64,000 bases of DNA. Source: Patescibacteria group bacterium (lineage in GTDB: Bacteria; Patescibacteriota; Patescibacteriia; UBA2196). Below, piece by piece: positions 1,972 through 47,021 of this stretch. A program made the translations under genes and the position numbers. The first letter of the stretch is position 1. Every line of letters starts with the position of its first letter. The notes under the pieces were generated by a model. The model saw only the letters and a program-made list of their open reading frames with translations, was not told the DNA's origin and did not search any database. The stretch lies in the NCBI GenBank assembly GCA_036845805.1, contig DAIUDD010000002.1:129112-193111 (forward strand), in the 5' to 3' direction.

Positions 1972-3045
1972 TTAGAATTGCTTTAAAAACCTTAAATCAC
2001 CAGAATGCATCAAGCGCACATCATCAATGCCATATTTCATCATCACCAGCCGATCAAGGCCCACATTAATATAAAATCCTTGCCATTTTTTTGGATCAAG
2101 ACCACCAGCTTTTAGGACGTTGGGGTGTGGCGCGCCGCCGGGCATCACTTCCAACCAACCGCGCTGTTTACAAACACTGCAACCCTTTCCACCACAAACC
2201 TGGCATTCCATATCAATTTCAAAGCCGGGTTCCACAAAAGGAAAAAAACCGGCACGCATGCGAATTTTTACCTCATGGCCAAAAGTGCGCGCTAATATAG
2301 TTTTAATTAAAATTTTACCAGCGGCAAAAGAAATATTTTCATCCACAATTAAAGCTTCGTATTGATAAAAACAACGTTCGTGTCCGGCATCGGTGGCTTC
2401 ACTTCGAAAAACACGACCAGGATAAACAAATCTAAGTGGCGGTTGGTGGGTTTGCATATAAAGCACGCTGCCACCTGTTAAATGTGGCCGCAAACACAAC
2501 CTTTCAAATCCTTTTTCTTCACTTTCATTTTGACTTTTTAATTTTGACTTTTGACTTTGTATCCAATACGTATCCATTGATTCGCGCGCCGGATGATCAG
2601 GGGGAAAATTTAAAGAATCAAAAGCATAACCTTCGGAAGTAATTTCCGGCCCGTCATAAATTTCAAAATTTAAAGAACGAAATGTGTCATTTAATTCGTA
2701 GATTATGGAAGTGATCGGATGAAGCGAGCCAATTTTCTGTGATTGGCCGGGGATGGTGGGATCAAAAGTTTTTTGAAAATTCTTATTTTTTTCCTTAGCA
2801 TCACCAGCTAAAATATTTTTGGTTTCTGAAAAAATTTTCTCGGCTTCAGTTTTAATCTCATTAATCAAACGACCCATGGCTGGCTTTTCTGCAATTGCTA
2901 CATTTCTGACCTCTTTAAAAACTGTGGTCAATTGTCCTTGACGGCCAAGATATTTATAATACAATTCCTCTAGTTCTTGGCTATTTTTGACCGCTTTAAT
3001 TTTTTCTAATAATTCTTTTTTTAAGTGGTTTAATTTTGCCTGCAT
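1972..3045 (-). CDS. pheS: Phenylalanine--tRNA ligase alpha subunit
   Basis: Class II aaRS motifs ('FRSEATDAGHERCFYQYEALIVDENISFA', 'GFFPFVEPGFEIDMEC', 'GGLDPKKWQGFYINVGLDRL'). Also carries an in-frame tandem 'ttttgact' repeat encoding a KSKLKSQ insert. Confidence 0.9.
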   Translation of the reverse strand: MQAKLNHLKKELLEKIKAVKNSQELEELYYKYLGRQGQLTTVFKEVRNVAIAEKPAMGRLINEIKTEAEKIFSETKNILAGDAKEKNKNFQKTFDPTIPGQSQKIGSLHPITSIIYELNDTFRSLNFEIYDGPEITSEGYAFDSLNFPPDHPARESMDTYWIQSQKSKLKSQNESEEKGFERLCLRPHLTGGSVLYMQTHQPPLRFVYPGRVFRSEATDAGHERCFYQYEALIVDENISFAAGKILIKTILARTFGHEVKIRMRAGFFPFVEPGFEIDMECQVCGGKGCSVCKQRGWLEVMPGGAPHPNVLKAGGLDPKKWQGFYINVGLDRLVMMKYGIDDVRLMHSGDLRFLKQF

Positions 3046-3078: not shown

Positions 3079-3573
3079 CTAGGATTTAGTTAAATTAGAA
3101 GATAAATTTTCGGGGATAGATTTTTCAGTTTTATTTTTTTCTGATTCTTCACTGTTTTGATAATGATTTTGAAAATAAAATTCAACAAGAGAAAAAAGAA
3201 TAACTAATAAAAGTAGATTCCACCAGGTAACCAAGCGCTGACTTTGTAACAATAATGTACCAACGATAATTAAAGCAAACCAAATACTTTGGCGGCCGGA
3301 AGCAATCATCTGATCGGCGGGAAAAACACTATGATGAAAAAAATAACGCATTAAAAATCCAAACAAAGAAAATGTCCCAACTAAAGCAAAAAATAAGGAG
3401 AGATAAAACAAAACAAAAACAAAAAAAGTAGCGCTTTCGGGGTTAATATTAAAGACTACCAAAAACCAAGCACCCCAACTCAACAATAAGGAAAAAATTA
3501 TAAAAATAAGGTAGGTTTTTAAAGACATTTTAATTAAACCTTGAAAGTTTTCCCAAGGTTGATTAAACTTCAC
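3079..3573 (-). CDS. Integral membrane protein (hypothetical, 4 TM)
   Basis: 164-aa hydrophobic ORF; no family recognised. Confidence 0.4.
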   Translation of the reverse strand: MKFNQPWENFQGLIKMSLKTYLIFIIFSLLLSWGAWFLVVFNINPESATFFVFVLFYLSLFFALVGTFSLFGFLMRYFFHHSVFPADQMIASGRQSIWFALIIVGTLLLQSQRLVTWWNLLLLVILFSLVEFYFQNHYQNSEESEKNKTEKSIPENLSSNLTKS

Positions 3574-3699
3574 TATTTACTTTAATTTTACCAAAATAAC
3601 AGATCTTTAGCAAACACAGTTAAAAACAGAAAATCCCGGCTTTAAGGCGGGATTTTCTGTTCTCTAAAAAATTGCTTTTGGCTAAAAAACAATAAAAGA

Positions 3700-3876
3700 T
3701 TAAAGATCAGCTGGTCTGATAGTTGATCTTTTGTTATCTTCACATCTTTTGGCGGCTTTGTCAAGCATATGAGCAACTTCTTTGCTCAAAGCTTCAGCCA
3801 AATCGCCAGCCATATGAAGATTTTTGCCTTTGACATAGGCTTTAACTTTGGAACCGACTACAAGCATGTCTTCCAT
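3700..3876 (-). CDS. Bacterial histone-fold DNA-binding protein (Bd0055/HBb-like, DUF1931-like singlet histone)
   Basis: Hand-translated 58-aa ORF, below the ORF-track cutoff: MEDMLVVGSKVKAYVKGKNLHMAGDLAEALSKEVAHMLDKAAKRCEDNKRSTIRPADL. Aligns residue-by-residue with my recollection of Bdellovibrio histone Bd0055 (MAEVLVVTSKVKKLIKEKGQMNTSAETIDVLSKAIEQLCLKAVDSAKADGRKTVMARDI), including the 'VVxSKVK' motif and the C-terminal 'RKT/RST-I-xxxDI' motif of the histone fold. Confidence 0.55.
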   Translation of the reverse strand: MEDMLVVGSKVKAYVKGKNLHMAGDLAEALSKEVAHMLDKAAKRCEDNKRSTIRPADL

Positions 3877-3994
3877 AATATTATTGAGTTTAAATTTGTT
3901 TTAAATTTAAACTAATTAATTTTAATTTAATGTTGCGCAAAACTTAAAGATATTATAGCAAATTGGGGAAAAAAATAACAATTTCTTTTTTAAG

Positions 3995-4068
3995 CGGAGC
4001 GGACGAGACTTGAACTCGCGACCTCTGCCGTGACAGGGCAGCGTTCTAACCAACTGAACTACCGCTCC
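3995..4068 (-). tRNA. tRNA-Asp (GTC)
   Basis: Hand-folded cloverleaf GGAGCGG-TA-GTTC..GAAC-G-CTGCC-CTGTCAC-GGCAG-..-GCGAG-TTCAAGT-CTCGT-CCGCTCC-G. Anticodon GTC; no encoded CCA. Confidence 0.8.
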
Positions 4069-4575: not shown

Positions 4576-6039
4576 TTAGTTTCTAATTTCTAATTTCTCC
4601 CCCACTCCAAACAAAATCTCTTCTCCCCACCATGGGCCGATGAGTTGCGCGCCAATTGGCAAACCGGCTTTGGTTTGGCCACAAGGAATTGACATGGCGG
4701 GCAGACCGGCTAAATTAACTGGCACAGTAAAAATATCTTCCAAATACATGGTCAAAGGATCATTAATTTTTTCACCGATTTTAAAAGCGGGCGTGGGAGT
4801 GGTGGGAGTTAATAAAAGATCAACTTGCTTAAATACTTTTTCAAAATCTTCGCGAATTAAAGCACGCACTTGCTGCGCTTTTTTATAATAGGCATCATAG
4901 TAACCAGCAGACAAAGTATAAGTGCCGAGCATTATTCTTCTTTTAACTTCTTCGCCCAAAAATTCAGCCCTTGTTTTTTTATAATGAGCTAACAAATTTT
5001 CTGAATCTACAGACTGGCCATAACGAATGCCATCAAAACGAGCCAAATTAGCGCTGGTTTCGGCTGGCTGAATTATATAATAAACAGCGAGCGCATATTC
5101 GGTATGCGGCAAACTAATATCAATAATTTGGGCGCCTAATTCTTCAGCTTTTTTGATTGCTTCTTTCACCGATTTCTCTACTTCCGGATCGATTCCAGCA
5201 ACAAAATATTCTTTAGGAATGCCGATTTTAAGATTCTTCAAATTTTCTTTTCCCTTAATTTCTTCATTTCTGGTTGCTTCAGCAACCATCCCGCCGTGGC
5301 GGGATGAAAGCGGAGCTTTCAATTTCTTAATTTCCATGCTAGTTGCATCTTTTTCATCTTTGCCTTTAATGACATCAAAAACAATTTTAGCATCAGCCAC
5401 TGTTTTGGTTAGAGGGCCAACTTGATCCAAAGATGAGGCCATGGCAATCAAACCATAACGGGAAACTGCGCCATAAGTTGGTTTTAGACCAACTACGCCG
5501 CAAAAAGTAGCTGGTTCGCGCACTGAACCGCCAGTATCAGTGCCGAGCGCATAAACAGCTAAATCAGCAGCCACGGCGGCGGCGGAACCACCAGAAGACC
5601 CGCCAGGCACGCGCTCTAAGTCATGGGGGTTTTTTACCAAGCCAAAACCAGAATTTTCATTAGAGCCGCCCATGGCAAATTCATCACAATTATTTTTACC
5701 TAAAATCACCGCGTCGGCGTTTTTTATTTTGGCGACGGCCATGGCGTCGTATGGAGCAAAGTAATTAGCTAAAATTTTGGAAGCGGCAGTGGTTTTGATG
5801 CCTTCAGTCATTAAAACATCTTTCACGCTCATTGGGATGCCAGCCAATAAAGAAATTTCAGCACCATTTTTAATTTTTTCATCAACAACAGCGGCTTGAG
5901 CTAAAGCTTCATCTTTAGTCACGGTAATAAAAGCATTAAGTTCCGGGTTTTTGTTTTCAAGACGCGCTAAATATTCGCGGGTTAATTCGACCGCAGAGAA
6001 TTTTTTATTAATTAATTTTTCATGAAGTTCTTGGATCAT
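4576..6039 (-). CDS. gatA: Glutamyl-tRNA(Gln) amidotransferase subunit A
   Basis: Amidase signature 'GGSSGGSAAAVAA' plus 'GTDTGGSVREPA'; 487 aa; immediately downstream of gatC. Confidence 0.9.
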   Translation of the reverse strand: MIQELHEKLINKKFSAVELTREYLARLENKNPELNAFITVTKDEALAQAAVVDEKIKNGAEISLLAGIPMSVKDVLMTEGIKTTAASKILANYFAPYDAMAVAKIKNADAVILGKNNCDEFAMGGSNENSGFGLVKNPHDLERVPGGSSGGSAAAVAADLAVYALGTDTGGSVREPATFCGVVGLKPTYGAVSRYGLIAMASSLDQVGPLTKTVADAKIVFDVIKGKDEKDATSMEIKKLKAPLSSRHGGMVAEATRNEEIKGKENLKNLKIGIPKEYFVAGIDPEVEKSVKEAIKKAEELGAQIIDISLPHTEYALAVYYIIQPAETSANLARFDGIRYGQSVDSENLLAHYKKTRAEFLGEEVKRRIMLGTYTLSAGYYDAYYKKAQQVRALIREDFEKVFKQVDLLLTPTTPTPAFKIGEKINDPLTMYLEDIFTVPVNLAGLPAMSIPCGQTKAGLPIGAQLIGPWWGEEILFGVGEKLEIRN

Positions 6040-9876: not shown

Positions 9877-9952
9877 TGGTGGGCACGGGTGGATTTGAAC
9901 CACCGACATCCACCTTATAAGGGTGGCGCTCTAACCGCTGAGCTACGTGCCC
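9877..9952 (-). tRNA. tRNA-Ile (TAT), CCA encoded
   Basis: GGGCACG-TA-GCTC..GAGC-G-CCACC-CTTATAA-GGTGG-..-GGTGG-TTCAAAT-CCACC-CGTGCCC-A-CCA. Anticodon read as UAU. Confidence 0.6.
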
Positions 9953-25907: not shown

Positions 25908-26252
25908 TTAAAACTTTTTTTCGTTTAATCTTTTTTTGTAGGTGCGCAAATAATATAATTTAGCCCGGCGCACAGCAGCTTGTTTAACTGGCACAATTTT
26001 TTCAATTAAAGGCGAATAAAGAGGGTAAATTTTTTCCACACCGATACCATCAGAAATTTTACGCACCGTGAAAGTGGCTGAAGGAGTGTTTGGTTTTTTA
26101 ACAGCAATAATAATCCCTTCAAAAACCTGGGCGCGAGTTCTTTCTTTGCCTTTAGCATCAATGTCTTTGATTAATTCATAAACTTTCACGGTTAAACCGG
26201 GTTTAACCAATGCGGCTAATTTTTCTTTTTTATTGTCTGTCTGATCGCTCAT
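25908..26252 (-). CDS. rplS: 50S ribosomal protein L19
   Basis: 114 aa; 'VKPGLTVKVYELIKD...RAQVFEGIIIAVKK...TFTVRKISDGIGVEKIYPLYSPLIEKI' is the L19 signature. Confidence 0.9.
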   Translation of the reverse strand: MSDQTDNKKEKLAALVKPGLTVKVYELIKDIDAKGKERTRAQVFEGIIIAVKKPNTPSATFTVRKISDGIGVEKIYPLYSPLIEKIVPVKQAAVRRAKLYYLRTYKKRLNEKKF

Positions 26253-27290: not shown

Positions 27291-27569
27291 TTATTTTTTC
27301 AAAGCATCCTTCAGGGTCTTGCCAGCCTTAAATTTAGGCACGGTAACTGAAGGCACCTGAATCCGTTCACTGGGATTTCTGGGATTAACACCAGCTCGAG
27401 CAGAACGAAATTTGGCCGAAAAAGTACCAAAGCCAGTTAAAGTTACTTCTTTGCCGGCTTTTAAATTTTCAATCACCACGTCTTCTAAGGCCTGTAAAAC
27501 TTTTTCTACTGTTATTTTCTCCTGGCTGGTTTTATCCGCAATGGTTTGAATTAATTCGGGTTTATTCAT
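27291..27569 (-). CDS. hup: DNA-binding protein HU
   Basis: 92 aa 'MNKPELIQTIADKT...GFGTFSAKFRSARAGVNPRNPSERIQVPSVTVPKFKAGKTLKDAL', the HU/IHF fold signature. Confidence 0.85.
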   Translation of the reverse strand: MNKPELIQTIADKTSQEKITVEKVLQALEDVVIENLKAGKEVTLTGFGTFSAKFRSARAGVNPRNPSERIQVPSVTVPKFKAGKTLKDALKK

Positions 27570-46434: not shown

Positions 46435-47021
46435 ATTTTTGGTGGAGGTGGCCGGAATTGCACCGGCGTCTAAAATTTTTTATTAAACCATTGCTACAAA
46501 GTTAGTTTGTTTAAGTGATCGACCAATTTTCTAAAACAAACAAAACAAATTGGCTTAAGCCTAATTGTTCTTACTAATTTTAAGCGGCCTTAAAATTAGC
46601 CAGCTTGTATTTTATAACACCTTGGCTGCTTTTACAAGCTTTAAGCAGTAAGATGGCGGTTGGATTTAAGCAACCACATAAGCTGGTTGAAAAGAAAAAG
46701 CGTGAGCTAGTTTAGCCACACCTTCTTTCACCCGGCTAAAAAGATTGGCATTTATTGTGCCGTGAATCAGTTTTAAGAGATGATTCAACTCTCTTTGATA
46801 AGTTTAATAGCTAAATTTTATCAAATTTGAACACCCCCATAATATTAAACTCAAAGTTCAAAATGCCAGCTCTGCGCCGGCATCCCGCATTTTGTGGGTT
46901 GGTTGTCCAAAGAACAACCAAAACTCAAAATTTAAGGTAAAAAGTTAGAATTATTGTAGCTTAAAAAATAAAAGATGTCAAATATAATAAAAAACTTTTA
47001 AAATATCTTATTATATTAAAA

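What the first reader, a model, noticed from the sequence alone, without database searches (positions are those of the whole stretch)
3700..3876. Unannotated 58-aa ORF encoding a bacterial histone-fold (Bd0055-like) protein
A short ORF missed by the 60-aa cutoff lies between a tRNA-Asp and a membrane protein gene. Its product aligns position-by-position with the singlet bacterial histone Bd0055/HBb as I recall it. Shared features are the N-terminal 'LVVxSKVK', the central amphipathic helix, and the C-terminal 'KR(S/K)T(I/V)xxxDI' motif that ends histone folds. The window also encodes HU, so this would be a second, histone-type nucleoid protein.
Basis: partly seen in the sequence, partly recalled or inferred. 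Interest (0 to 1): 0.6.

Follow-up and report, generated by a model that had tools for sequence, protein, structure and literature searches.

The report
Face-to-face-type bacterial histone gene
The 58-codon ORF is a real, conserved gene for a small histone-fold DNA-packaging protein in an uncultured ultra-small (CPR/Patescibacteria) bacterium. It belongs to the known "face-to-face" histone family typified by Leptospira HLp rather than to the Bdellovibrio Bd0055 type, so it is a new member of a rare but known kind.

Summary
The ORF at 3700..3876 (minus strand, 58 aa) exists as described. It is intact in 20 related loci and under strong purifying selection (dN/dS about 0.09-0.3). It has its own conserved extended -10 promoter and an intrinsic terminator.

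Pfam and NCBIfam give no hit above threshold. Public records call it "hypothetical protein", so it is annotated but not named.

Sequence and profile searches place it in the alpha3-truncated histone family. The closest solved relative is HLp of Leptospira perolatii, the tetrameric DNA-wrapping "face-to-face" (FtF) histone: 45% identity with no gaps, E=1e-12, profile E=1e-25. Bd0055/HBb is far weaker (29% identity, E=0.06).

All published FtF signature residues are present (R44, N48, R50-x-T52-xxxx-D57, K12). R44, N48, R50 and D57 are invariant across 34 relatives; T52 is nearly so. HBb lacks the two tetramer residues. The AlphaFold monomer shows alpha1, a 28-residue alpha2 and a 3-residue alpha3.

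Orthologues sit in conserved synteny (GatCA, tRNA-Asp, histone, membrane protein, PheS) in Kuenenbacteria-like CPR genomes. HU is also encoded in the window.

Extra: the mRNA leader carries a covarying hairpin that matches no Rfam family.

Verdict: the histone reading is correct and the subfamily is refined. Tetramer formation and DNA wrapping are inferred, not tested.

The parts
3700..3876 (-). Coding sequence of a 58-aa (6.4 kDa, pI 8.9) alpha3-truncated, face-to-face-type histone
   Evidence: ORF. Best solved relative is HLp/9qt0, E=9.7e-13; profile E=1.1e-25. dN/dS 0.085-0.31. AlphaFold2 monomer pLDDT 80.5 with helices 2-17, 23-50 and 55-57. FtF signature residues K12, R44, N48, R50, T52 and D57 are present.
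3952..3981 (-). Promoter-like site: TTGTTA, 18-nt spacer, TGc-TATAAT (extended -10). Inferred transcription start near 3944.
   Evidence: Consensus scan scores 10/12 with the TG extension. The TTGCTAyAATAT block is conserved upstream of the orthologues in L003/L008, L009, L010, L011 and L013, with one mismatch in L007 and L015. It is unique in the window at up to 1 mismatch. The transcription start is inferred, not measured.
3913..3921 (-). AATTAAYNN block in the leader, directly 5' of the hairpin; the first six bases (AATTAA) are invariant
   Evidence: The first six bases are invariant in 9 distinct leaders. The pattern AATTAAYNNGTT occurs 5 times in the window against 1.5 expected. Function unknown.
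3888..3912 (-). Conserved 5'-leader RNA hairpin (10-bp stem GTTTAAATTT/AAATTTAAAC, loop AAAAC), ending 11 nt before the ATG
   Evidence: Across 9 distinct orthologous leaders, 11 pairs are 100% paired. Seven pairs carry compensatory changes on both sides. No shuffle of 500 reaches the observed covariation, and slid registers collapse to 58% paired or less (the alignment was hand-fitted). A tenth example is L090. The G:U pairs work only on the sense strand. No Rfam family matches.
3622..3664 (-). Intrinsic terminator: GC-cored hairpin followed by CUGUUUUU, 36 nt after the stop codon
   Evidence: RNA fold of 3610..3700(-) gives -28.6 kcal/mol, z=-4.7, with 0 of 200 shuffles folding as well. Comparable hairpin-plus-T-run sequences follow the stop codon in most orthologues.
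3994..4068 (-). tRNA-Asp(GTC), the conserved upstream neighbour (context, not part of the gene)
   Evidence: ARAGORN and Rfam. tRNA-Asp also precedes the histone gene in L003, L007, L008, L011, L013 and L020.
27291..27569 (-). HU (92 aa, pI 9.9), the classical nucleoid protein co-encoded in the window (context)
   Evidence: Pfam Bac_DNA_binding, E=2.8e-27; charge and pI.

Best explanation
The ORF encodes a face-to-face (FtF) type alpha3-truncated histone, an orthologue-level relative of Leptospira HLp. The host is a Kuenenbacteria-like member of the Candidate Phyla Radiation.

Shown here:
- The gene is real, single-copy in the window and under strong purifying selection.
- It is vertically conserved in fixed synteny.
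- It forms its own transcription unit: a conserved extended -10 promoter, a roughly 68-nt leader with a covarying hairpin, the coding sequence and an intrinsic terminator.
- Its sequence carries every published FtF signature.

Inferred by homology:
- Two chains form the histone-fold handshake dimer.
- Two dimers join through the C-terminal end of alpha2, loop L2 and the short alpha3, using R44, N48 and R50, into a stable tetramer.
- The tetramer binds DNA without sequence preference through the alpha1 N-terminus (S9, K10, K12, K16) and the L1/L2 loops (G24, S51, T52). It wraps about 60 bp, as shown experimentally for HLp.
- It would thus act beside HU as a chromosome-compacting nucleoid protein.

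The leader hairpin most likely acts at the RNA level, on mRNA stability or translation control. The genome mostly lacks Shine-Dalgarno sequences. The role of the hairpin is a guess.
For: Gene reality:
- The ORF is intact in 20 loci.
- dN/dS is 0.085-0.31 with a third-position bias.
- Promoter and terminator are present.

Family:
- phmmer against the PDB: HLp 9.7e-13, HTkC 3.8e-3, HBb 0.06.
- Profile of 34 relatives: HLp 1.1e-25, HTkC 1.9e-14, HBb 4e-13, NF-YB/HMfA only marginal.
- 45-46% gapless identity to the L. perolatii and L. interrogans histones.
- R44, N48, R50 and D57 are invariant, and V7, S9, K10, A41 and T52 nearly invariant, across 34 relatives at 45-84% identity. These are the FtF HMM positions R48, N52, R54, T56 and D61 of Schwab et al. 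2024 (PMC11390915).

Mapping onto HLp residues (offset verified against every residue named in PMC12701072):
- 6 of 9 DNA-contact residues are identical, plus T56->S51.
- The three conserved tetramer residues R49, N53 and R55 are identical.
- The RD clamp is kept, and the net charge is the same, +2.

Fold: the AlphaFold2 monomer has pLDDT 80.5, with alpha1 at 2-17, alpha2 at 23-50 (28 aa) and alpha3 at 55-57. This matches the family definition of a 3-4-residue alpha3 and a shortened alpha2.

Lineage:
- The nearest genomes are Cand. Kuenenbacteria, Parcubacteria, Patescibacteria, Falkowbacteria and Kerfeldbacteria.
- Synteny GatC-GatA-tRNA-Asp-histone-membrane protein-PheS-glycosyltransferase holds, in whole or in part, in 8 loci whose neighbouring genes are only 37-74% identical, apart from the glycosyltransferase.

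Function by homology: HLp forms tetramers, wraps about 60 bp and reorganises the E. coli nucleoid (PMC12701072). The L. interrogans orthologue ranked second (fourth in an earlier study) among the most abundant proteins and is probably essential (PMC10627809).
Against: - No experiment or multimer prediction was possible, so tetramerisation and wrapping rest on conserved residues only.
- Three of the six HLp tetramer-interface residues differ (S52->D47, T61->A56, F63->L58).
- One HLp DNA-contact residue is not conserved (T27->M22).
- Pfam histone models hit only below threshold.
- Unlike Leptospira, this genome keeps HU. The histone therefore need not be the main chromatin protein, and its abundance is unknown.
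- Many relatives carry Lys-rich N-terminal tails that this protein lacks.
Confidence: 0.8

Rival explanations
1. It is a Bd0055/HBb-type 'bacterial dimer' histone. It would stay a dimer and bend DNA sharply, or coat it, rather than forming tetramers that wrap DNA.
For: - HBb is a detectable relative: profile E=4e-13 and 29% identity over the full length.
- The two share the LVVxSKVK N-terminus, the RxTxxxxD motif and the short alpha2/alpha3.
- No oligomeric state was measured or modelled here.
- Half of the HLp interface residues are substituted.
Against: - HLp scores about 34 bits higher than HBb in single-sequence search and about 40 bits higher with the profile.
- The alignment to HBb needs a gap in L1.
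- Bacterial dimers are defined as lacking R48 and N52 of the FtF profile (PMC11390915). HBb has S and D there, while this protein and all 34 relatives keep R and N invariant.
- In a rough NJ tree HBb sits on a long separate branch.
Confidence: 0.12
2. It has a histone fold but is not a general chromatin protein. It could be a specific regulator or a protein-protein adaptor, as some histone-fold proteins such as NF-Y, TAFs and the DUF1931 pseudodimers have become.
For: - HU is present and could cover nucleoid organisation.
- Schwab et al. themselves caution that not all prokaryotic 'histones' need be global organisers (PMC11390915).
- Net charge is only +2.
- The tightly conserved leader element hints at specific regulation.
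Against: - The DNA-contact residues of HLp are largely conserved: S9, K10, K12, K16, G24, T52.
- The charge and pI equal those of the HLp core, which does bind and wrap DNA (PMC12701072).
- There is no extra domain and no partner gene in the conserved neighbourhood.
- There is no DUF1931 match.
Confidence: 0.07
3. The ORF is a chance open frame in an AT-rich intergenic region and is not translated.
For: - It is short at 58 codons.
- There is no Shine-Dalgarno sequence upstream.
- No Pfam or NCBIfam family passes threshold.
Against: - It is intact in 20 loci down to 56% identity.
- dN/dS is 0.085-0.31.
- There are 316 relatives at E<=1e-3 among 1.84 billion cluster representatives.
- It is clearly homologous to crystallised proteins.
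- 11 of 12 other genes checked in the window also lack an SD.
- Its own promoter and terminator are present.
Confidence: 0.01

Closest known systems
HLp of Leptospira perolatii (PDB 9QT0-2) and its L. interrogans orthologue LA_2458: bacterial face-to-face (FtF) alpha3 histones (Hu et al. 2025, PMC12701072; Hocher et al. 2023, PMC10627809)
   Same: - 45-46% identity with no gaps, and the same C-terminal end point.
- Same alpha1-L1-alpha2-L2-short alpha3 layout.
- Identical tetramer-signature residues (R44/N48/R50 = HLp R49/N53/R55).
- RD clamp R50-D57.
- DNA-contact residues S9, K10, K12, K16, G24 and T52.
- Same core net charge, +2.
   Different: - The host is a CPR bacterium that also keeps HU; Leptospira lacks HU and Dps.
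- Three interface residues differ (D47, A56, L58), as does one DNA-contact residue (M22).
- The genomic neighbourhood is different: GatCA/tRNA-Asp/PheS here against SMC/MAP/DUF350 in Leptospira.
- It has a lineage-specific leader hairpin.
- Oligomeric state, DNA binding and abundance are untested.
HTkC (TK1040) of Thermococcus kodakarensis, PDB 9F2C: archaeal FtF histone (Schwab et al. 2024, PMC11390915)
   Same: Same family (profile E=1.9e-14). It shares the truncated alpha3 and the R at the start of the tetramer patch. Its crystal structure shows the torus-shaped tetramer that defines the family.
   Different: 34% identity. It has a two-residue longer L1. E replaces the N48 equivalent. It is archaeal.
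HBb / Bd0055 of Bdellovibrio bacteriovorus (PDB 8FVX, 8CMP): 'bacterial dimer' alpha3 histone
   Same: Same alpha3 superfamily and a similar length. It shares the LVVxSKVK start, the RxTxxxxD motif and the short alpha2.
   Different: Only 29% identity, with a gap in L1. S and D replace R44 and N48. It is a dimer that bends DNA rather than a wrapping tetramer (PMC11390915; PMC12701072).
Archaeal nucleosomal histones (HMfA/HMfB) and Pfam CBFD_NFYB_HMF / Histone
   Same: Histone fold, with the RxTxxxxD L2 motif and RD clamp. Weak profile hits to PF00808 and PF00125 over residues 26-58, and to HMfA and NF-YB.
   Different: Scores fall below Pfam gathering thresholds (15.5 against 21.4 bits). alpha3 has 3 residues instead of about 10, and alpha2 is shorter. 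The four-helix-bundle tetramer interface is absent.
DUF1931 (PF09123) pseudodimeric histones (Aquifex AQ328, Thermus 1WWI)
   Same: They are prokaryotic histone-fold proteins. The PDB entry for HLp happens to carry the label 'DUF1931 domain-containing protein'.
   Different: No PF09123 hit even at E<=10. DUF1931 proteins are two-fold pseudodimers that lack DNA-binding residues (PMC12701072). This protein is a singlet that has them.

Membership tests
Face-to-face (FtF) alpha3 histones (Schwab et al. 2024) | Histone fold with alpha3 truncated to 3-4 residues and an alpha2 4-5 residues shorter than in nucleosomal histones | tested here: met
   The AlphaFold2 model (pLDDT 80.5) has helices 2-17, 23-50 (28 aa) and 55-57 (3 aa). 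This is a secondary-structure layout only; no structural superposition could be obtained.
Face-to-face (FtF) alpha3 histones (Schwab et al. 2024) | Conserved C-terminal residues of the FtF HMM: R48, N52 (dimer-dimer contact) and R54-x-T56-xxxx-D61 | tested here: met
   R44, N48, R50, T52 and D57 have the same spacing (+4, +6, +8, +13). R44, N48, R50 and D57 are invariant, and T52 is kept in at least 90%, of 34 relatives. The definitions come from PMC11390915.
Face-to-face (FtF) alpha3 histones (Schwab et al. 2024) | Conserved solvent-exposed lysines on alpha1 (HMM K16, less often K12/K14/K20) | tested here: met
   K12 (= HMM 16), K10 (= 14) and K16 (= 20) are present. K10 is nearly invariant. 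K10, K12 and K16 are invariant among closer relatives.
Face-to-face (FtF) alpha3 histones (Schwab et al. 2024) | Sequence closer to FtF members than to other histone categories | tested here: met
   Bits for HLp / HTkC / HBb are 50.7 / 20.9 / 17 by single sequence and 92.8 / 56.8 / 52.4 with the profile. The protein clusters with Leptospira and Planctomycetota FtF sequences in an NJ tree (rough, no support values).
Face-to-face (FtF) alpha3 histones (Schwab et al. 2024) | Torus-shaped homotetramer of two dimers (predicted or solved). This is the feature the category was defined on. | not testable with these tools
   The structure tool folds single chains only. The tetramer is inferred from conserved R44/N48/R50; 3 of the 6 HLp interface residues differ.
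Face-to-face (FtF) alpha3 histones (Schwab et al. 2024) | Non-specific DNA binding and wrapping of about 60 bp | not testable with these tools
   Only homology is available: 6 of 9 HLp DNA-contact residues are identical and one is conservative.
Bacterial dimer histones (HBb/Bd0055 type) | Absence of the FtF dimer-dimer residues R48 and N52, and sequence clustering with HBb | tested here: not met
   R44 and N48 are present and invariant in relatives, while HBb has S and D at those columns. HBb reaches only E=0.06 and 29% identity.
DUF1931 (PF09123) pseudodimeric histones | Match to PF09123; two fused histone folds; no DNA-binding residues | tested here: not met
   There is no PF09123 hit at E<=10, and none among 34 relatives at E<=0.01. 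The protein is a single 58-aa fold.
Nucleosomal archaeal histones / Pfam PF00808 CBFD_NFYB_HMF | Score at or above the Pfam gathering threshold; alpha3 of about 10 residues | tested here: not met
   PF00808 scores 15.5 bits against a cut-off of 21.4, and PF00125 scores 13.4 against 26.4. Only 3 of 34 relatives touch PF00808 at E<=0.01. alpha3 has 3 residues.

The most novel reading that the evidence does not exclude
In a whole Kuenenbacteria-like branch of the ultra-small CPR bacteria, a vertically inherited FtF histone, rather than or together with HU, is a major chromatin protein. Its synthesis would be controlled post-transcriptionally through the lineage-specific covarying hairpin in its Shine-Dalgarno-less leader, for example by autoregulation through the histone binding its own mRNA, or by regulated mRNA stability. 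This would extend histone-based chromatin, with a dedicated RNA control element, to a bacterial radiation that the histone papers read here do not mention in their text.
Probability: 0.15. Interest if true: 0.6.

Novelty: new member of a known kind. Interest (0 to 1): 0.4.

Why it matters
Histone-fold proteins were found in under 2% of bacterial genomes, against about 93% for HU (PMC10627809). Only two have been characterised structurally with DNA. This gene shows that the HLp-type wrapping histone is conserved in fixed synteny, with its signature residues intact, in a Kuenenbacteria-like branch of the Candidate Phyla Radiation, with relatives in several other CPR lineages. There it co-exists with HU. 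The texts of the histone papers read here name Spirochaetota, Planctomycetota, Bdellovibrionota and Myxococcota as the main bacterial hosts and do not mention CPR.

Practically, the family escapes Pfam and NCBIfam and is labelled 'hypothetical protein', so it can now be named. The covarying leader hairpin is a small testable handle on how such a gene is controlled in a genome that largely lacks Shine-Dalgarno sequences.

It does not change the concept of bacterial histones.

Tried and rejected
- Pfam and NCBIfam scans of the protein gave nothing above threshold, and no DUF1931 hit. Pfam on 34 relatives gave only 3 weak PF00808 hits.
- Foldseek of the AlphaFold monomer against the PDB found no match with E<=0.001; even HLp was not retrieved. 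I read this as the known weakness of structure search on a 58-residue open two-helix monomer, not as evidence against the fold.
- The 34-sequence alignment was too diverse for the locus scan, so a 15-sequence alignment was used.
- The metagenome scan added only four close relatives, L087-L090.
- MAFFT alignments of the leader did not keep the hairpin arms in register. I therefore hand-aligned them, padded with N. My first structure string was off by one column and gave 58% pairing.
- An alternative start at M4 (55 aa, as in some database entries) was rejected. All loci have the in-frame upstream ATG, and position 4 is V, A or T in several orthologues.
- The hairpin as a DNA-level operator or a terminator was considered and judged less likely. 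Its G:U pairs exist only on the sense strand, and it is followed by an A-rich rather than a U-rich tail.
- Recent horizontal transfer was considered. The ORF's GC content (40%) against the window's (36.5%), together with the conserved synteny, argue against it.
- Literature searches combining histone terms with Patescibacteria/CPR terms found no paper on the subject.

Full report
**1. Observation**

The minus strand at 3700..3876 holds an ATG-started ORF of 58 codons. Its product is MEDMLVVGSKVKAYVKGKNLHMAGDLAEALSKEVAHMLDKAAKRCEDNKRSTIRPADL.

- Upstream is tRNA-Asp(GTC) at 3994..4068(-).
- Downstream is a 164-aa ORF without a Pfam match at 3079..3573(-). I read it as a membrane protein only from its hydrophobic translation.
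- Beyond the tRNA lie an EamA/SMR-like 106-aa membrane protein, then GatA and GatC.
- HU is encoded at 27291..27569(-).

The gene is not unannotated in public data. An identical protein is on record as 'MAG TPA: hypothetical protein PKZ16_01780 [bacterium]' on a 722-kb contig, and JGI also called it.

**2. Is it a real gene?**

Yes.

- The ORF is intact in all 20 related loci inspected, down to 56% protein identity. Database versions listed as 55 aa all have the same in-frame upstream ATG.
- Against 11 same-length orthologues whose dS could be estimated, nucleotide differences pile up at third codon positions (for example 22/8/3 for positions 3/1/2). Nei-Gojobori dN/dS is 0.085-0.31.
- A sigma-70-like promoter with an extended -10 (TTGTTA, 18 nt, TGcTATAAT; 3981..3952) lies between the tRNA and the ORF. 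Its TTGCTAyAATAT core is conserved upstream of the orthologues, with a single mismatch in two of them, and is unique in the window.
- Thirty-six nucleotides after the stop codon there is a strong hairpin followed by a U-run (3622..3664; -28.6 kcal/mol for the 91-nt stretch, z=-4.7).
- There is no Shine-Dalgarno sequence, but 11 of 12 other genes checked in the window lack one too.
- The window holds one copy. Its GC content (40%) is close to the window's (36.5%).

**3. What family?**

Pfam gives only sub-threshold hits to the histone models over residues 26-58: PF00808 at E=0.021 (15.5 bits against a cut-off of 21.4) and PF00125 at E=0.098. There is no DUF1931 hit, and NCBIfam gives nothing.

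Against PDB sequences the picture is clear:

| Solved relative | Type | E-value (single sequence) | E-value (profile of 34 relatives) |
|---|---|---|---|
| 9QT0, HLp of Leptospira perolatii | tetrameric DNA-wrapping histone | 9.7e-13 | 1.1e-25 |
| 9F2C, HTkC | archaeal face-to-face histone | 3.8e-3 | 1.9e-14 |
| HBb/Bd0055 (8FVX, 8CMP) | bacterial dimer histone | 0.06 | 4e-13 |

With the profile, NF-YB and HMfA are only marginal. Identity is 45-46% to the Leptospira proteins with no gap, 34% to HTkC and 29% to HBb, which needs a gap in L1.

Schwab et al. 2024 define the alpha3 histones by a 3-4-residue alpha3 and a shortened alpha2. They define the face-to-face (FtF) subgroup by conserved HMM positions R48, N52, R54, T56 and D61 plus lysine K16. 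'Bacterial dimers' such as HBb lack R48 and N52 (PMC11390915).

The window protein has R44, N48, R50, T52 and D57 at exactly that spacing, and K12. Across 34 relatives at 45-84% identity, R44, N48, R50 and D57 are the only invariant columns, and T52 is nearly invariant. HBb has S and D at the first two positions.

I verified the numbering offset to HLp against every residue named in Hu et al. 2025. I then mapped the functional residues.

- The three tetramer residues said to be conserved among bacterial FtF histones (R49, N53, R55) are identical.
- The other three interface residues differ (S52->D, T61->A, F63->L).
- The RD clamp is kept.
- Six of nine DNA-contact residues are identical, plus T->S.
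- Net charge (+2) and pI (8.9 against 9.1) match the HLp core.

**4. Where does it occur?**

An exhaustive phmmer search of 1.84 billion cluster representatives finds 316 relatives at E<=1e-3. They are mostly 55-90-aa singlets, many with Lys-rich N-terminal tails, plus fused doublets of about 118-126 aa.

In GTDB species genomes the closest loci, at 50-86% identity, are:
- an unclassified MAG and Candidatus Kuenenbacteria (both 86%);
- then Parcubacteria, Patescibacteria, Falkowbacteria, Buchananbacteria and Kerfeldbacteria MAGs.

These are followed by Planctomycetota, Melainabacteria, Nanoarchaeota, Iainarchaeum, Chloroflexi, Myxococcales and Leptospira. NCBI places Kuenenbacteria in the Patescibacteria/Parcubacteria group.

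The order GatC-GatA-tRNA-Asp-histone-membrane protein-PheS-(hypothetical)-glycosyltransferase is kept, in whole or in part, in eight loci. Their neighbouring proteins other than the glycosyltransferase are only 37-74% identical to the window's. The gene is therefore vertically inherited in this CPR branch, and the window is from a Kuenenbacteria-like CPR bacterium.

A rough NJ tree without support values puts most CPR sequences in one cluster inside the bacterial FtF group, with HBb on a long branch.

**5. Mechanism**

Shown: a conserved, selected, independently transcribed gene for an FtF-signature histone-fold protein.

Inferred by homology to HLp (PMC12701072):
- a handshake dimer forms;
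- two dimers join face to face through the end of alpha2, L2 and alpha3 into a tetramer;
- a basic band wraps about 60 bp of DNA non-specifically, compacting the nucleoid.

The L. interrogans orthologue ranked second (fourth in an earlier study) among the most abundant proteins and is probably essential (PMC10627809). Here HU is also present, so the division of labour is unknown.

The rivals, all less likely, are:
- an HBb-like bending dimer, for which the defining features were tested and not met;
- a non-chromatin role;
- a spurious ORF, which is refuted.

**6. Extra: a conserved leader hairpin**

A hairpin lies between the promoter and the ATG at 3888..3912(-): GTTTAAATTT-AAAAC-AAATTTAAAC. 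It is preceded by a block whose first six bases, AATTAA, are invariant, and it ends 11 nt before the start codon.

- The nine distinct orthologous leaders all have a stem in the same register with different sequences.
- On a hand-fitted alignment, 11 pairs are 100% paired. Seven have compensatory changes on both sides (for example AU/GC/CG/GU at one pair).
- No shuffle of 500 reaches the observed covariation score. Sliding the partner by one column drops pairing to 58%.
- Stems this long from the fixed anchor arise in at most 0.2% of composition-matched shuffles for seven of the nine leaders. L090 gives a tenth example.
- The G:U pairs work only on the sense strand, so this is an RNA feature.
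- No Rfam family matches it.
- More distant CPR relatives have a GGAGGTGA Shine-Dalgarno sequence instead and lack the hairpin.

Caveats: the alignment was fitted to the structure, and the sequences are related. The function (mRNA stability or translational control) is a guess.

**7. Comparison, novelty and verdict**

This is a member of a known family, the FtF alpha3 histones. Every sequence-level defining feature that could be tested was met. The quaternary structure and DNA wrapping were not testable.

It is not a Bd0055-type bacterial dimer, not DUF1931 and not a nucleosomal histone.

Presence in CPR is not mentioned in the text of the papers read here, though their catalogues may include such sequences.

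Novelty: new member of a known kind. Interest is moderate, 0.4.

Noticed in passing
window 3888..3921 (-); also L002, L003-L006/L008/L088, L007/L087, L089, L009, L010, L011/L013, L015, L090 just upstream of the histone ATG: A conserved AATTAA block (AATTAAYNN) is followed by a covarying RNA hairpin in the histone mRNA leader. Seven of 11 pairs carry compensatory changes, and no Rfam family matches. It is absent from CPR relatives that use a GGAGGTGA Shine-Dalgarno sequence.
   Followed up: yes
proteins P0012-P0017, P0019, P0022-P0024, P0031, P0033, P0038, P0040: The best-scoring representatives in the exhaustive search are fused tandem doublets (about 118-150 aa) of the same FtF-type fold, each half keeping the R..N.R.T....D signature. 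Some have signal-peptide-like N-termini (P0022, P0024). Their organisms are unknown, and the main text of Schwab et al. read here does not describe FtF doublets.
   Followed up: no
L023 3478..3651 and 3742..3915 (Nanoarchaeota MAG): Two separate FtF histone genes stand in tandem, about 57-60% identical to the window protein. This is a possible unfused counterpart of the doublets.
   Followed up: no
L009-L011, L013, L015, L016, L018, L019, L038, L057 (genome contigs titles): These MAGs are titled 'uncultured Gammaproteobacteria bacterium ... binchicken/SRP...'. Four of them (L010, L011, L013, L015) share part or all of the CPR synteny (GatCA-tRNA-Asp-histone-membrane protein-PheS) with Kuenenbacteria. 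The record taxonomy therefore looks like a placeholder or a mislabel.
   Followed up: partly
window 46440..46838 (-): Rfam finds a full-length tmRNA (105 bits, E=5e-40) that ARAGORN did not report in its scan of the window.
   Followed up: no
window-wide; examples upstream of 1972..3045, 4576..6039, 27291..27569, 25908..26252: Eleven of 12 genes checked have no Shine-Dalgarno sequence upstream of the ATG; their upstream regions are mostly AT-rich. Related CPR lineages carry a clear GGAGGTGA upstream of the histone gene. This suggests a lineage-level loss of SD-led initiation.
   Followed up: partly
L007 3067..5000: In the closest GTDB relative, about 1.9 kb is inserted between tRNA-Asp and the histone gene. 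These two are adjacent in the window and in L003/L008. It may be an insertion at the tRNA gene.
   Followed up: no
window 9877..9952 (-); also L003, L008, L010: A tRNA-Ile with anticodon TAT (UAU) sits next to tRNA-Phe. The pairing is conserved in the related CPR loci L003 and L008. This implies AUA decoding without a lysidine-modified CAU tRNA.
   Followed up: no
window 3079..3573 (-) and orthologues in L002-L008, L010, L011, L013, L015: A Pfam-less ORF with a hydrophobic translation (164 aa from a GTG start; 130-143 aa in relatives) always follows the histone gene at 42-49% identity. It has its own promoter-like site (3613..3585). Any functional link to the histone is unknown.
   Followed up: partly
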